Under the pieces are notes generated by a model. The model saw only the letters and a program-made list of their open reading frames with translations. It was not told the origin of the DNA and searched no databases. Below are positions 5,765-30,445 of a stretch of 64,000 bases of DNA, in pieces. The translations under genes were made by a program, and so were the position numbers. This stretch comes from the human T2T-CHM13v2.0 reference genome, Homo sapiens. The stretch lies in the NCBI RefSeq assembly GCF_009914755.1, contig NC_060936.1; one strand, 5' to 3'. Position 1 is the stretch's first letter, and every line of letters starts with the position of its first letter.

Positions 5765-7674
5765 AAAAATAATTTAACTCTTATTTTAGGTAAAGGGGAT
5801 ACAAATGAATTTGTGTTAGATGGGTATATTGTGATAAGCTAAAGTTTAGGGTACAATCATTCCCATCCCCCAGGTAGTGAGCATAATACCCAATAAGTGG
5901 CTTTTTAGTACTTGCTGTTTTTTATCTCTCCACTCTAGTAGTCTGTAATATGTATTTTTCCTGTCCTTATATTCGTGTGGACCCAGTGATTAGCTTCCAC
6001 TTATAAGTGAGAACATGTGGCATCTGGTTTTCTGTTCCTATGTTAATTCACTTAAGATAATGACCTCCAGCTGCATCCAGGTTGCTGCAAGGGACATTAT
6101 TTCATCCTTCTTTTGGCCATGTAGTATTCCATTGTCTATATGTACCACATTTCTTTATCTAATTCACTGTTGACGGGCACCCAGGTTGAGACCGTGTCTT
6201 TGCTATTGTGAATAGAGCTGTGATGACCATAGAAGTATATAAGTAGATGTGTTTTTGGTAGAAGAATTTATTTTCCTTTGGGTATATACCCGGTAGTGGG
6301 ATTGCTGAGTTGAATGGTAGTTCTGTTTAAGTTCTTTGGGAAATCTCGAAACTACTTTACACAGTGACTGAACTAATTTACATTCCTACCAACATAGGAT
6401 AAGCATTCCCTTTCTTCTGCAGCCTTGCCAGCGTCTGTTTTTTTAATGTTTTGAACCAGTCAGCCCTTCTGACTGGTGTGAGATGGTATCTCCTTGGGAT
6501 TTTGATTTGCATTTTTTTGATGATTAGTGATGTTAAACATTTTTATGTGTTTGTTAGCTGCTTGTATGTCTTCTTTTGAGAAGTGTCTGTTCATGTCCTT
6601 TGTCTACTTTTTAATATTGTTTTTGTTTTTTGCTTGTTGAATTGTTCAAGTTTCTTATAGATTCTGGATATTAGTCCTGTGTTAGATGCATGGTTTGCAA
6701 AGGTTTTCTCCCATTCCATAGATTGTCTTTTCACTCTGTTGATTATTTTTGTTGTGCAGAAGCTCATTAGTTTAATTATATCCCACTTGTCCATTTTTTT
6801 TGTTGCAATTGCTTTTGAGAACTTAGTCACAAATTTTTTGCCAAGGCCAATATCCAGAATCTTTTCTTGGTTTTCTTCAGTGGTTTTTATAGTTTTAGGT
6901 TTTACATTTCCGTCTGTAATACATTTTGATTAAATTTTTTATATGAAAAGAAGGGGTCCAGTTTCATTTCTCTGCATAGTTAGCCAGTTATTCCAGCACC
7001 ATTTACTGAATAATGAGTACTTTCCCCATTGCATTCTTTTTGCTAACTTCATTGAAGATCAGATGGTTTTAGGTGTGTGGCTTTGCTTCTGGGTTCTCTA
7101 TTCTGTTCCTTTAGTCTAGGTGTCTGTTTTTGAACCAGTACTATGCTGTTTGGTTACTGTGGCCTTGCAGTATAGTTTGATATCAGGTAATGGGATGCCT
7201 CTCACTTTGTTCTTTATGCTTAGGATTGCTTTGACTATTCAGTCTCTTTTTTCCTATTGAATTTTACAATAGTTTTATTCTAATGCAGTGAAAAATCATG
7301 CCGGTTGTTTGATAAGAATACCATTGAATCTGTAGATTGCTTTGGGCAGTATAGACAGTTTAATGATAATTTTTCTACCAATCCATGAGAGTAGAATGTT
7401 TTTCCACTTGTTTGTGTCACCTATAATTTCTTTCATCAGGGTTTGTATTTATCCTAGTAGAGATCTTTCACTTCCTTGGTTTAAATGTATTCCTAGGTAT
7501 TTAATTTATTGTAGTTATTCTAAATGGAATTGCATTATTGATTTGGGTATCAGTTTAACTGTTATCGGTGTATAGAAATGCTACTAATTTTTTTCCATTG
7601 ATTTTGTATTCTGAAACTTTATTAGAGTATGTTGTCAGTTCTAGGAGGCTTTTGGCAGAGTATTTAGGGTTTTT
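5765..7674 (-). mobile_element. Older LINE-1 (L1PA15/16- or L1PB-like), 3' part; host of the young L1
   Basis: Degenerate 3' UTR and ORF2 (ORF 6591-6830 [17 protein letters not shown]); sequence continues after the nested L1 at 13720. Confidence 0.88.
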
Positions 7675-7907
7675 TTTTAATTAATTAATTTATTTATTTT
7701 TAATTATACTTTAAGTTTTAGGGTACATGTGCACATTGTGCAGGTTAGTTACATATGTATACATGTGCCATGCTGGTGCACTGAACCCACTAACTCGTCA
7801 TCTAGCATTAGGTATATCTCCCAATGCTATCCCTCCCCCCTCCTCCCACCCCACAACAGTCCCCAGAGTGTGATATTCCCCTTCCTGTGTCCATGTGATC
7901 TCATTGT

Positions 7908-11749
<3,842 letters not shown>

Positions 11750-11794
11750 TTATTTTGCTCTTTAGTTGATGCAGTTTCTTCCTAGTCTCGATGG

Positions 11795-12811
11795 TCTTTA
11801 CATTTTGCCATGATTTTGCAGTGGCTGGTACCAGTTGTTCCTTTCCATGTTTAGCGCTTCCTTCAGGAGCTCTTGTAGGGCAGGCCTGGTGGTGACAGAA
11901 TCTCTCAGCATTTGCTTGTCTGTAAAGTATTTTATTTCTCCTTCGCTTATGAAGCTTAGTTTGGCTGGATATGAAATTCTGGGTTGAAAATTCTTGTCTT
12001 TAAGAATGTTGAATATTGGCCCCCACTCTCTTCTGGCTTATAGGGTTTCTGCCGAGAGATCCGCTGTTAGTCTGATGGGCTTCCCTTTGAGGGTAACCCG
12101 ACCTTTCTCTCTGGCTGCCCTTAACATTTTTTCCTTCATTTCAACTTTGGTGAATCTGACAATTATGTGTCTTGGAGTTGCTCTTCTCGAGGAGTATCTT
12201 TGTGGCATTCTCTGTATTTCCTGAATCTGAACGTTGGCCTGCCTTGCTAGATTGGGGAAGTTCTCCTGGATAATATCCTGCAGAGTGTTTTCCAACTTGG
12301 TTCCATTCTCCCCATCACTTTCAGGTACACCAATCAGACGTAGATTTGGTCTTTTCACATAGTCCCATATTTCTTGGAGGCTTTGCTCGTTTCTTTTTAT
12401 TCTTTTTTCTCTAAACTTCCCTTCTCACTTCATTTCATTCATTTCATCTTCCATCGCTGATACCCTTTCTTCCAGTTGATCGCATCGGCTCCTGAGGCTT
12501 CTGCATTCTCCACGTAGTTCTCGAGCCTTGGTTTTCAGCTCCATCAGCTCCTTTAAGCACTTCTCTGTATTGGTTATTCTAGTTATACATTCTTCTAAAT
12601 TTTTTTCAAAGTTTTCAACTTCTTTGCCTTTGGTTTGAATGTCCTCCTGTAGCTCAGAGTAATTTGATCGTCTGAAGCCTTCTCTCAGCTCGTCAAAGTC
12701 ATTCTCCATCCAGCTTTGTTCCATTGCTGGTGAGGAACTGCGTTCCTTTGGAGGAGGAGAGGTGCTCTGCTTTCTATAGTTTCCAGTTTTTCTGTTCTGT
12801 TTTTTCCCCAT
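11795..12811 (-). pseudogene. L1 ORF1p, disrupted
   Basis: MGKKQNRKTG...EMNEMK then TGA (CGA>TGA); second stop after ADLSAETL; left end approximate. Confidence 0.93.
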
Positions 12812-13715
12812 CTTTGTGGTTTTATGTACTTTTGGTCTTTGATGATGGTGATGTACAGATGGGTTTTCGGTGTGGATGTCGTTTCTGTTTGTTAGTTTTC
12901 CTTCTAACAGACAGGACCCTCAGCTGCAGGTCTGTTGGAATACCCTGCCGTGTGAGGTGTCAGTGTGCCCCTGCTGGGGCGTGCCTCCCAGTTAGGCTGC
13001 TCAGGGGTCAGGGGTCAGGGACCCACTTGAGGAGGCAGTCTGCCCGTTCTCAGATCTCCAGCTGCGTGCTGGGAGACCCACTGCTCTCTTCAAAGCTGTC
13101 AGACAGGGACATTTAAGTCTGCAGAGGTTACTGCTGTCTTTTTGTTTGTCTGTGCCCTGCCCCCAGAGGTGGAGCCTACAGAGGCAGGCAGGCCTCCTTG
13201 AGCTGTGGTGGGCTCCGCCCACTTCGAGCTTCCAGGCTGCTTTGTTTACCTAATCAAGCCTGGGCAATGGCGGGCGCCCCTCCCCCAGCCTCGCTGCCGC
13301 CTTGCAGTTTGATCTCAGACTGCTGTACTAGCAATCAGCGAGACTCCATGGGCGTAGGACCCTCCAAGACAGGTGCGGGATGTAATCTCGTGGTGCGCCG
13401 TTTTTTAAGCCCCTCGGAAAAGCGCAGTATTCGGGTGGGAGTGACCCGATTTTCCAGGTGCTGTCCGTCACCCCTTTCTTTGACTGGGAAAGGGAACTCC
13501 CTGACCCCTTGCGCTTCCCAAGTGAGGCAATGCCTCGCCCTGCTTCGGCTCACGCACGGTGCGCGCACCCACTGACCTGCGCCCACTGTCTGGCACTCCC
13601 TAGTGAGATGAACCCGGTACCTCAGATGGAAATGCAGAAATCACCCGTCTTCTGCGTCGCTCACGCTGGGAGCTGTAGACCGGAGCTGTTCCTATTCGGC
13701 CATCTTGGTTCCTCC
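12812..13715. promoter_or_regulatory. L1 5' UTR CpG-rich bidirectional promoter (sense promoter on -, antisense promoter on +) with intact YY1 site
   Basis: CpG-rich 13250-13715; cggccatcttg at 13697-13707 is CAAGATGGCCG on the - strand. Confidence 0.85.
13267..13575 (+). CDS. L1 ORF0 (antisense ORF in the 5' UTR), 102-aa extended form; translation hypothetical
   Basis: MAGAPPPASLPPCSLISDCC...RVGVTRFSRC matches primate ORF0; ATG in strong context (gcaATGg); splice donors after nt 106 and 191 retained. Confidence 0.7.
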   Translation: MAGAPPPASLPPCSLISDCCTSNQRDSMGVGPSKTGAGCNLVVRRFLSPSEKRSIRVGVTRFSRCCPSPLSLTGKGNSLTPCASQVRQCLALLRLTHGARTH

Positions 13716-27465: not shown

Positions 27466-28947
27466 GAAATGCTCCGGGCTTAGCTCACACACCCTTTTCT
27501 TTCATAAAGTTCACACCATTCCAACCAGCTGGAAATGACCAACCCTCTTTGGGACTTACCACATTGTAGCTAACTCATGGCCCTTATCACTTTCCTTTTG
27601 GTCACTTGTGTTCTTTGCTTGATTGTGTAAAGTGGAATTTAAAAAAAAAAAAGAGCAGTGCATTTACCAATGAATACATAAAAAGTTAAATTGTTACCTT
27701 AAGAATTTTTTAAATAAACTCAATTTTAGAGAGTTTTAGGATCACAGTAAAATTGAGGAGAAATTACAGAGATTTCCCACATACCACCTGCCCCACACAT
27801 GCATAGCCTATCCTACCATCAATGTCTCCCAACAAAGGGTGATACAGTTGTTACAAATGATGAAACAACATTAACACATCTTTATCTCCCAGAGTCCACA
27901 GTCCACAGTTTACATTAGGTTTCACTCTTGACGTTGTACTTTCTATGGGTTTGGACAAATGCATAATGACATATATCCACCATTACAGTATTATACAAAG
28001 TAGTTTCTCTACCCTAAAAATCCTCTGCTCTGCCTATTCATTCCTTCCTCCTCCAAAACCCCTGGAGACCACTGTGCTTTTTACTGTTTTCATAGTTTTG
28101 CGTTTTCCAGAATCATACAGTATGTAGCATTTTTAGACTAGCTTATTTAACTTAATCACATGCATTTAAATTTCCTCCAGGTGTTTCAATTGCTTGATAG
28201 CTCATTTCTTTTTATTGCTGAATAATATTCCATTGTCTAGATGTATAACAGATTATTTATATATTCACCTACTGAGGGCATCTTGATGGCTTCCAAGTTT
28301 CATGTTTCTTTGATGATATATATGAAGATGCTTGATTCTGTTATATTAACCCTGGATCCTGTGTCCTGAAACCTTGCAATAATTGCTTATTAGTTCCAAG
28401 TGTGTTTTTGTCTGTTATTTTAAACTTTCTACTTAGACAATTATGTCATATTGCAAACAAAGACAATTTCTTTCTTTTCAATCTATATACATTTCATTTT
28501 CTTTTCTTTTTAAAAATTACATTAATTACGACTCCCAGTACCATGTTGAAAAACAGTGGTGAGAGGGGACGTTTTTGACTTGTTCCTGACCTTAGTGGGA
28601 AGACTTTGAGTCTCTCACTATTAAGTATGAAGTTAGATGTAGGGTTTTGGCAGATATTTTTGATCAAGTTGAGGAGGTTCTCCCCTATTCCAAGTTTAAT
28701 GGGAGTTTTTATTATAAATGAGTGTTTGATTTTGCAAATTCACTTTTCTAGATCTATTGATGTGATCATGTCATTTTATTATTCTTCTTTAGCCTGTTAA
28801 TGTAATGAACTGTAAGAATTCATTTTGAATGTTGAACCAGTCTTGGAAACCTGAGGGAAATCCCACTTAGTCATGATGTATACTATATTTATACATTGTT
28901 GGATTCAATCTGATATTTTTTGAGAATTTTTGCGTCTATGTTCATGA

Positions 28948-29310
<363 letters not shown>

Positions 29311-29468
29311 TGATTTTGTTATTAGGATAATGCTAGCCTCACAGAATGAAATAGGAAGTACTTCTGCTGCTGCTATCATCTGAAGAAGATTGTAATGATT
29401 TGGTATAATTTCTTACTTAAGTGTTTGATAGAATTCACCAATGAACCTATCTTAATTTGATGCTTTCT

Positions 29469-29929
29469 TTTTTATTATTATTATTATACTTTAAGTTCTA
29501 GGGTACATGTGCACAATGTGCTGGTTTGTTACATAGGTATACATGTGCCATGTTGGTGTACTGCACCCATTAACTAGTCATTTACATTAGGTATATTTCT
29601 CAGTGCTATCCCTCCCCCCTCCCCCCACCCCACGACAGGCCCCAGTGTGTGATGTTCCCCTTCCTGTGTCCAAGTGTTCTCACTGTTCAATTCCCACCTA
29701 TGAGTGAAAACATGTGGCATTTGGTTTTTTTGTCCTTGTGATAGTTTGCTGAGAATGATGGTTTCCAGCTTCATCCATGTCCCTACAAAGGACATGAACT
29801 CATCCTTTTTTATGGCTGCATAGTATTCCATGGTTTATATGTGCTACATTTTCTTAATCCAGTCTATCACTGATGGACATTTGGGTTGGTTCCAAGTCTT
29901 TGCTATTGTGAATAGTGCAGCAATAAACA
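29469..29929 (-). mobile_element. 5'-truncated L1PA (L1PA5/6-like) 3' end
   Basis: L1 3' UTR and end of ORF2 ([23 protein letters not shown]); T-rich tail from 29469. Confidence 0.93.
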
Positions 29930-29931
29930 AA

Positions 29932-29980
29932 CTTGGCTTTTTGGCTAATATCAAGTATAGTATCTGTTCTTTTCAGTTTA
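29932..29980 (+). pseudogene. U2 snRNA fragment (about nt 8-56), 3'-truncated retrocopy
   Basis: cttggctttttggctaatatcaagtatagtatctgttcttttcagttta matches 44/49 positions of recalled human U2 (CTCGGCCTTTTGGCTAAGATCAAGTGTAGTATCTGTTCTTATCAGTTTA). Confidence 0.9.
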
Positions 29981-30275
29981 GTTTGATGCTTTCTGTTTTA
30001 GAAGGTTATTAAATATGGATTCATTTTTAGAGAGTTCTATCCTCCTTCAATGCCTGGGGTTCCAATGAGGAAATCAGAGCTTTTTCCCAAAAATGGTACC
30101 TCCTATTTTTCCCAAGGACTCCTCGTCTGTTAGAAATGAACTTAGTTCCTTTCATGTGGTCATCAAGAGGGGCAAAAAGACAGACTGAGGAAATAATTCA
30201 CTCAAGTGAGAAAAATAAATAAATAAAAACTTCTCAAAAAAACAAGATCCAAGAAGAGAAAAAGCACAAAGGTCT

Positions 30276-30445
30276 TGTATATAGATATATACACACACAG
30301 ACACACACACATATATATACATATATGTATATATGTGTGTATATATGTATATGCTATATATACATGTATATATGTGTATGTATATATACACACAAACGTA
30401 TATGTGTGTCTGTAAAGAGAGAGGGAGAGCGAGAGAGAGTATGGG
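30276..30445 (+). repeat. Compound (TA)/(CA)/(TG)/(GA) microsatellite
   Basis: Read directly from the sequence. Confidence 0.9.

What the first reader, a model, noticed from the sequence alone, without database searches (positions are those of the whole stretch)
29452..29994. U2 snRNA fragment joined head-to-head with a truncated L1 inside a single target-site duplication
Seen: TSD ttaatttgatgctttct (29452-29468) and ttagtttgatgctttct (29978-29994) encloses an L1PA 3' end on the - strand (to 29929), two extra nt, and a U2 fragment on the + strand (29932-29980, 44/49 match). Removing the insert restores the host L1M. The U2 break point (UUAAU, nt 54-58) matches the first TSD bases (ttaat). Known: most snRNA/L1 chimeras are same-orientation U6/L1, and twin priming normally inverts one L1 RNA. 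Inference: one nick primed the L1 poly(A) while the second nick primed internally on a U2 RNA, i.e. twin priming on two different templates.
Basis: partly seen in the sequence, partly recalled or inferred. Interest (0 to 1): 0.8.

Follow-up and report, generated by a model that had tools for sequence, protein, structure and literature searches.

The report
Known inverted U2/L1 chimeric insertion
A piece of U2 spliceosomal RNA and the tail end of an L1 retrotransposon were copied into the same chromosome break in opposite directions; the structure is real, but this kind of event, and this very locus, are already published.

Summary
A 17-bp target-site duplication (16/17 identical; 0 of 2000 shuffles reach 16) encloses a 5'-truncated L1 3' end on the - strand (poly-T 29469-29473, L1 to 29929) and U2 snRNA nt 8-56 on the + strand (29932-29980, 44/49). 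Removing the insert and one duplication copy restores an old L1 ORF2 fragment. The first five bases of the duplication (TTAAT) equal U2 nt 54-58, which lie in the loop of a U2 hairpin.

The twin-priming reading, with L1 RNA copied at one nick and U2 RNA at the other, is well supported. It is not new. Doucet et al. 2015 proposed this model for inverted U1/U2/U5/U6-L1 chimeras. A 2026 Cell Genomics catalogue lists what is almost certainly this locus (hg38 chr12:21230823-21231385, L1PA5 with antisense U2).

Four other antisense U2/L1 chimeras that I examined have the same layout, and their U2 pieces end at nt 55-63. One correction to annotation: the RefSeq/Rfam U2 pseudogene span 29928-30104 is too long. 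Sequence beyond about 29980 is host L1, not U2.

Interest is low.

The parts
29452..29468 (.). Left copy of the 17-bp target-site duplication. Its first 5 nt, TTAAT, equal U2 nt 54-58.
29469..29473 (-). Short poly-T, the remnant of the L1 poly(A) tail. It abuts the left TSD copy.
29474..29929 (-). 5'-truncated L1 3' end. RepeatMasker calls it L1PA5 in the published table.
   Evidence: Table S2 of PMC13174262.
29930..29931 (.). Junction bases. They are either 2 nt of filler or L1 sequence with one substitution. L1 homology could run to 29935 and overlap the start of U2.
29932..29980 (+). U2 snRNA nt 8-56, 44/49 identical. Mismatches fall at U2 nt 10, 14, 25, 33 and 48.
29978..29994 (.). Right copy of the TSD. 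It overlaps the last 3 aligned U2 bases.
29322..29451 (-). Host: an old L1 ORF2 fragment, left flank.
29995..30150 (-). Host: an old L1 ORF2 fragment, right flank. RefSeq LOC124903123, Rfam and RepeatMasker wrongly include it in the U2 span.

Best explanation
This is a single L1-mediated insertion made by twin priming on two different RNAs.

1. The L1 endonuclease nicked the window + strand after ...GCTTTCT. That T-rich 3' end primed reverse transcription on the poly(A) tail of an L1PA5 RNA.
2. The second nick, 17 bp away on the other strand, left a 3' end reading ...AAATTAA.
3. That end annealed to the UUAAU in the 8-nt loop (nt 53-60) of a U2 snRNA hairpin and primed cDNA synthesis towards the U2 5' end.
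4. The two cDNAs were joined at L1 5'-truncation point 29929-29935 and U2 nt 8, with 0-2 filler nt or 1-4 nt of overlap.

The product is a non-functional 49-nt U2 fragment lying head-to-head with a 460-bp L1 tail in the last intron of SLCO1B1.

Shown here: the anatomy, the TSD, the microhomology and the restoration of the host repeat. Inferred: the order of the nicks, and annealing as the cause of priming.
For: - **One event.** One 16/17 TSD encloses both pieces, and the reconstructed empty site is colinear with 5 of 5 same-strand host-family copies.
- **Nick sites.** Poly-T directly follows the left TSD copy. The nick context in the L1 orientation is CTTTCT/G. In the U2 orientation it is CTATC/TTAAT, which is not endonuclease-like.
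- **Microhomology.** TSD bases 1-5 equal U2 nt 54-58. Chance of 5 or more matching bases is about 0.0035 at this base composition.
- **Loop location.** The Rfam consensus structure places nt 53-60 in a hairpin loop.
- **Same layout elsewhere.** Four of four other antisense U2/L1 chimeras (L077, L078, L091, L092) have an enclosing TSD of 14-16 nt, U2 3' ends at nt 55-63, 2-6 nt of overlap with the TSD, and T-rich nicks on the L1 side: TTCTT/AC, TTTT/AA, TTCTT/AT, TTTT/AA.
- **Similar age of the two pieces.** The U2 piece differs at 5/49 positions. The L1 piece differs at 14/266 positions in the part not used to select the comparison copies. Fisher p = 0.19.
[quoted passage not shown] In that U2 sheet 9 of 13 chimeras are antisense, and 2 of 2 in Table S3 are antisense.
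Against: - The nick site CTTTCT/G departs from the TTTT/A consensus. It would fail the catalogue's '1T/3A' motif test when read as AC/AGAA.
- The catalogue's automatic MSA predictor did not call this locus (found_by_msa_prediction = 0).
- Over the whole L1 piece, the U2 piece looks more diverged: 5/49 against 15/433, Fisher p = 0.042. That comparison is biased, because the L1 copies were chosen for similarity to part of the fragment.
- I could not inspect any primate orthologue.
- In L092 a 14-nt spacer separates the left TSD candidate from the poly-T, so not every comparison locus is clean.
Confidence: 0.9

Rival explanations
1. Two independent insertions: a solo 3'-truncated U2 retropseudogene and an L1 that later (or earlier) landed exactly beside it.
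For: Solo U2 fragments ending at nt 52-60 with their own TSDs are common. Seventeen of 36 distinct U2 loci end there, and 7 of those show an exact 9-20-nt direct repeat right at the U2 ends. The U2 piece is nominally more diverged than the L1 piece.
Against: No direct repeat flanks U2 alone or L1 alone. The only repeat, 16/17, encloses both. The L1 5' end abuts U2 nt 8 and its poly-T abuts the TSD, so a second event would have needed to insert at the exact junction and leave no TSD. The divergence difference is not significant once selection bias is removed (p = 0.19).
Confidence: 0.04
2. The U2 piece is filler DNA. A U2 cDNA fragment made elsewhere was captured by end-joining at the L1 5' junction, rather than being primed from the second nick.
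For: The L1/U2 join has little or no homology. Extra sequences at L1 5' junctions are a known outcome (general knowledge, not tested here).
Against: Random capture predicts no orientation bias, no fixed U2 end and no homology to the TSD. Instead, the U2 3' end sits in the nt 53-60 loop and overlaps the TSD by 2-6 nt in 5 of 5 loci. Antisense orientation dominates the catalogue, 11 of 15.
Confidence: 0.05
3. An old, full-length U2 pseudogene spanning 29928-30104, as annotated by RefSeq/Rfam, with an unrelated L1 next to it.
For: cmscan aligns the whole 192-position model at 51 bits, above the gathering score of 46. RepeatMasker in the catalogue extends the match to U2 nt 107.
Against: Sequence 29995-30104 is no more U2-like than shuffled sequence: 401 of 500 shuffles score at least as high. 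It is colinear with other copies of the host L1. That host family encodes LINE-1 ORF2p residues 459-545 on its antisense strand, E = 1.7e-28.
Confidence: 0.01

Closest known systems
Inverted snRNA/L1 chimeras formed by twin priming (Doucet et al. 2015, Mol Biol Evol, PMC4476161; 'Group IV, twin')
   Same: A 3'-truncated snRNA lies opposite to a 5'-truncated L1 inside one TSD. The endonuclease-like site appears only in the L1 orientation. The snRNA truncation point is complementary to the target and sits in a single-stranded loop. One U2/L1 case is reported (sections 6 and 8 read).
   Different: Nothing in kind. I could not tell whether their U2/L1 example is this locus, because their Table S1 is a PDF that could not be read. 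Their cut-off of at least 90% identity may exclude this 44/49 fragment.
Catalogue of RNA/LINE-1 chimeras (Cell Genomics 2026, PMC13174262, Table S2, U2 sheet)
   Same: It lists hg38 chr12:21230823-21231288(-) L1PA5 joined to chr12:21231289-21231385(+) U2. It attributes antisense chimeras to twin priming.
   Different: The table gives no TSD for U2 rows and extends U2 to nt 107. Here the U2 part ends at nt 56-58 and the TSD and microhomology are defined. Identity with the window locus is inferred, not lifted over. The grounds are: same chromosome, same strands, same adjacency, L1 length 466 versus 463 bp, and the fact that this is the only U2 nt 26-52 pattern hit on chr12 between 18.76 and 84.87 Mb.
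[quoted passage not shown]
   Same: The second-nick 3' end primes internally on an RNA through short complementarity, which inverts the 5' segment.
   Different: The inverted segment comes from U2 snRNA, not from the same L1 RNA.
U6/L1 chimeras formed by template switching or RtcB ligation
   Same: An snRNA plus a 5'-truncated L1 inside one TSD.
   Different: In those chimeras U6 is full-length and in the same orientation as the L1 (98.3% sense in PMC13174262, section 10). Here U2 is inverted and 3'-truncated.

Membership tests
Inverted snRNA/L1 twin-priming chimera (Doucet 2015) | 3'-truncated snRNA in the opposite orientation to a 5'-truncated L1 | tested here: met
   U2 nt 8-56 on the + strand and the L1 3' end on the - strand.
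Inverted snRNA/L1 twin-priming chimera (Doucet 2015) | A single TSD enclosing both pieces, with the L1 poly(A) against one copy | tested here: met
   16/17 TSD, reached by 0 of 2000 shuffles. Poly-T at 29469-29473 abuts the left copy.
Inverted snRNA/L1 twin-priming chimera (Doucet 2015) | Endonuclease-like cleavage site in the L1 orientation, not in the snRNA orientation | tested here: inconclusive
   The L1 side is CTTTCT/G: T-rich, but not TTTT/A. The U2 side is CTATC/TTAAT. The four comparison loci are clearer.
Inverted snRNA/L1 twin-priming chimera (Doucet 2015) | Complementarity between the snRNA truncation point and the insertion site | tested here: met
   TTAAT equals U2 nt 54-58 and TSD bases 1-5; chance about 0.0035.
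Inverted snRNA/L1 twin-priming chimera (Doucet 2015) | Truncation in a single-stranded segment of the snRNA | tested here: met
   The Rfam consensus structure has a hairpin loop at nt 53-60. Seventeen of 36 distinct U2 loci end at nt 52-60.
Inverted snRNA/L1 twin-priming chimera (Doucet 2015) | Both pieces present or absent together in other species | not testable with these tools
   No primate genomes are held. The published table says 'supported by a clear MSA', but its automatic predictor gave 0.
U6/L1-type template-switch chimera | snRNA in the same orientation as the L1 | tested here: not met
   The orientations are opposite.
U2 snRNA gene or full-length pseudogene (RF00004; RefSeq LOC124903123) | U2 sequence across the whole model, including the Sm site and the 3' stem-loops | tested here: not met
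   Only nt 8-56 match. Sequence 29995-30104 is indistinguishable from shuffled sequence and belongs to the host L1.
Solo 3'-truncated ('tailless') U2 retropseudogene | TSD directly flanking the U2 piece | tested here: not met
   The sequence upstream of the U2 piece is L1, not a TSD copy. Compare the solo loci.

The most novel reading that the evidence does not exclude
The 8-nt loop at U2 nt 53-60 may be a general entry point for the L1 reverse transcriptase in three contexts:
- first-nick priming, which gives solo fragments;
- second-nick priming, which gives inverted chimeras such as this one;
- template switching, which gives the sense chimeras ending at nt 53-60 in the catalogue.

Which abundant nuclear RNA is copied at the second nick would then be set by a few bases of complementarity to the target overhang. 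Here that complementarity may extend to 11 of 15 positions with two 1-nt gaps, as aligned by eye. Doucet 2015 states the general idea, so only the U2-specific, three-context quantification would be new.
Probability: 0.5. Interest if true: 0.2.

Novelty: already known. Interest (0 to 1): 0.1.

Why it matters
The locus is a clean worked example showing that the second nick of an L1 integration can be extended on an RNA other than L1. That is relevant to how L1 scatters fragments of cellular RNAs through the genome. It adds no new principle. The practical yield is an annotation correction: the RefSeq U2 pseudogene model LOC124903123 (window 29928-30104) and the RepeatMasker call U2:11-107 are too long by more than 100 bp and run into host L1 sequence.

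Tried and rejected
**Searches and requests that failed or were blocked**
- The PDB search with the window's own host translation, stops read as X, found nothing. A better-preserved family copy then gave the ORF2p match.
- I planned to fetch all 88 non-array U2 pattern hits. Only 28 hits, plus two small later regions, were examined. About 58 hits remain unseen, so my counts are not genome-wide.
- The readable Doucet supplement (xlsx) holds no locus list.

**Ideas tested and dropped**
- L010 (chr12:20.79 Mb), the best host-family match at 81%, might have served as a paralogous empty site. It is colinear over about 1.2 kb, but I could not separate paralogy from membership of the same repeat family, so it is used only as one of the 5 family copies.
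- An L1-only TSD: the weak GCTTT similarity between 29463-29467 and the U2 start is U2's own sequence, and the left flank is host L1. Rejected by eye.

Full report
**1. What is in the sequence**

On the + strand the window reads as follows:
- host sequence up to 29451;
- a 17-nt repeat at 29452-29468;
- five T at 29469-29473;
- the reverse complement of an L1 3' end up to about 29929;
- two bases at 29930-29931;
- a U2-like stretch at 29932-29980;
- the 17-nt repeat again at 29978-29994;
- host sequence.

The two repeat copies agree at 16 of 17 positions. None of 2000 shuffles of the two 60-nt flanks reached 16/17; the highest was 15.

A whole-genome search with Rfam U2 gave me the RNU2-1 array copies on chr17. 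A local alignment of one copy (L001:1501-1691) to the window gives U2 nt 8-56 = 29932-29980, 44/49 identical, on the + strand only. None of 500 shuffles reached that score. The five mismatches are at U2 nt 10, 14, 25, 33 and 48.

The L1 part is 95-97% identical over about 170-176 nt to each of 39 other genomic copies. It is 89.6% identical to an older, near full-length L1 elsewhere in the window at 7693-8149. Back-extension against 11 copies places the secure end of L1 homology at 29929. It could reach 29935 with one or two mismatches. The join is ambiguous by a few bases.

**2. The host**

The left flank is an interspersed repeat: 40 of 40 scored matches, from 429 candidates, are 76-81% identical. 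In a script I joined the left flank, including one repeat copy, to the right flank and aligned the result to family copies. All 5 copies fetched on the same strand align straight across the join without a gap. Three copies fetched on the other strand did not align in that script and are not counted.

The antisense strand of one family copy (L019:1353-1670) matches LINE-1 ORF2p residues 459-545 with E = 1.7e-28. The window's own translation has four stops and found nothing in the PDB.

It follows that the RefSeq pseudogene model and the Rfam hit at 29928-30104 are over-extended, as is the RepeatMasker call U2:11-107 in the published table. Sequence 29995-30104 scores no better against U2 nt 71-191 than shuffled sequence does: 401 of 500 shuffles score at least as high.

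**3. Mechanism**

In the L1 orientation the first nick lies on the window + strand at CTTTCT/GTTTT. It is T-rich, though not the canonical TTTT/A. The L1 poly(A) abuts that side.

The other end of the duplication, read on the - strand, ends ...AAATTAA-3'. Its last five bases are complementary to UUAAU, U2 nt 54-58, and the inverted U2 cDNA starts exactly there. At the local base composition, chance gives five or more shared bases about 0.35% of the time.

The Rfam consensus structure printed places U2 nt 53-60 (UUUAAUAU) in the loop of a 6-bp hairpin, where it is exposed for annealing. These features are what twin priming with a second, non-L1 template predicts.

The age check is compatible with a single event. 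The U2 piece differs from the gene at 5/49 positions. The L1 piece differs from what at least 8 of 11 other copies share at 14/266 positions, in the part not used to pick those copies (Fisher p = 0.19). Over the whole fragment the comparison is 15/433 and p = 0.042. That figure is biased by how the copies were chosen.

**4. Other loci in the same genome**

A pattern of U2 nt 26-52 with up to 3 mismatches has 99 hits in the genome, against 0 for the reversed control. Among the 36:
- 17 end at U2 nt 52-60;
- 2 end at nt 72 and nt 82;
- 17 are near full length.

Seven of the 17 show an exact direct repeat of 9-20 nt right at the U2 ends, overlapping the U2 3' end by 1-5 nt. These are solo internally primed fragments.

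Two of the 17 (L077 on chr13, L078 on chr15) have an antisense L1 3' end immediately upstream, as do two small regions fetched afterwards (L091 on chr6, L092 on chrX). In all four:
- a 14-16-nt repeat with 0-1 mismatch encloses L1 plus U2;
- U2 ends at nt 55-63 and overlaps the repeat by 2-6 nt;
- the L1-side nick is T-rich (TTCTT/AC, TTTT/AA, TTCTT/AT, TTTT/AA).

In L092 a 14-nt spacer separates the left repeat from the poly-T.

**5. What is already known**

Doucet et al. 2015 (PMC4476161; sections 6 and 8 read) describe snRNA/L1 chimeras in inverse orientation, namely four U5, one U1, one U2 and one U6. These are 3'-truncated in single-stranded loops, complementary to the insertion site, and show the endonuclease consensus only in the L1 orientation. 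The authors explain them by twin priming with the snRNA as the top-strand template. They also describe solo 3'-truncated snRNA pseudogenes primed internally.

The 2026 Cell Genomics paper (PMC13174262; sections 10 and 17, further passages, and parts of supplements 1 and 2 read) assigns antisense chimeras to twin priming. Its Table S2 U2 sheet has 13 rows, of which 9 are antisense. One is chr12:21230823-21231288(-) L1PA5 with chr12:21231289-21231385(+) U2:11-107. That row is flagged as found by proximity, which the legend defines as 'supported by a clear MSA', but it was not called by the automatic MSA predictor. Seven of the 9 antisense rows list U2 3' limits of 55-63. The chr12 row lists 107, which my alignment corrects to 56-58. 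Table S3 adds 2 more, both antisense.

I could not lift coordinates between assemblies. I equate that row with the window locus on these grounds: same chromosome, same strands, immediate adjacency, L1 length 466 versus 463 bp, an offset of about 121 kb, and the fact that it is the only U2 pattern hit on chr12 between 18.76 and 84.87 Mb. In the parts I read, neither paper gives the TSD or the U2 break point for this locus. The supplementary PDFs of both papers could not be read and may contain more.

**6. Verdict**

The rivals fit the single enclosing TSD, the fixed U2 end and the junction homology poorly. Those rivals are two independent insertions, capture of a ready-made U2 cDNA, and a full-length old U2 pseudogene.

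The event is an ordinary, already catalogued member of a published class, so novelty is 'already known' and interest is low. The only additions here are the exact anatomy of this locus, four matching comparison loci, and the note that current U2 annotations of the site are too long.

Noticed in passing
window 29928-30104: RefSeq LOC124903123 (a cmsearch U2 pseudogene) and RepeatMasker's U2:11-107 extend more than 100 bp past the real U2 fragment into host L1 ORF2 antisense sequence. Forced global model alignment probably explains the span.
   Followed up: yes
genome-wide pattern hits: The G-to-A change at U2 nt 33 seen in the window copy recurs in about 10 of the 99 U2 nt 26-52 pattern hits. 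It is not at a CpG. It could reflect an older U2 gene variant or a reverse-transcription error hotspot.
   Followed up: no
L063 (G000:C1:52634059-52637686): A U2 nt 6-56 fragment lies 13 nt from the 5' end of an antisense Alu-like sequence, with another Alu-like 3' end just downstream. It may be an inverted U2/Alu chimera or a nested insertion. The Alu identification is by eye only.
   Followed up: no
L010 (G000:C12:20788536-20791672) versus window 28306-29484: The best host-family match (81%) lies 320 kb upstream on the same chromosome. It is colinear over about 1.2 kb, apart from the window's Alu at 28959-29321. This may be a paralogous intron segment from the SLCO1B gene-cluster duplication rather than an independent L1 copy.
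   Followed up: partly
window 7658-13710: A near full-length older L1 lies on the - strand; its 3' end at 7693-8149 is 89.6% identical to the L1PA5 fragment. I used it as the L1 reference for finding L1 sequence next to U2 fragments.
   Followed up: partly
window 30270-30416: An AT/TG-rich simple-repeat region gives many sub-threshold microRNA-family hits on both strands (mir-297, mir-3149, mir-466 and others). All are below their gathering scores, so these are low-complexity artefacts.
   Followed up: no
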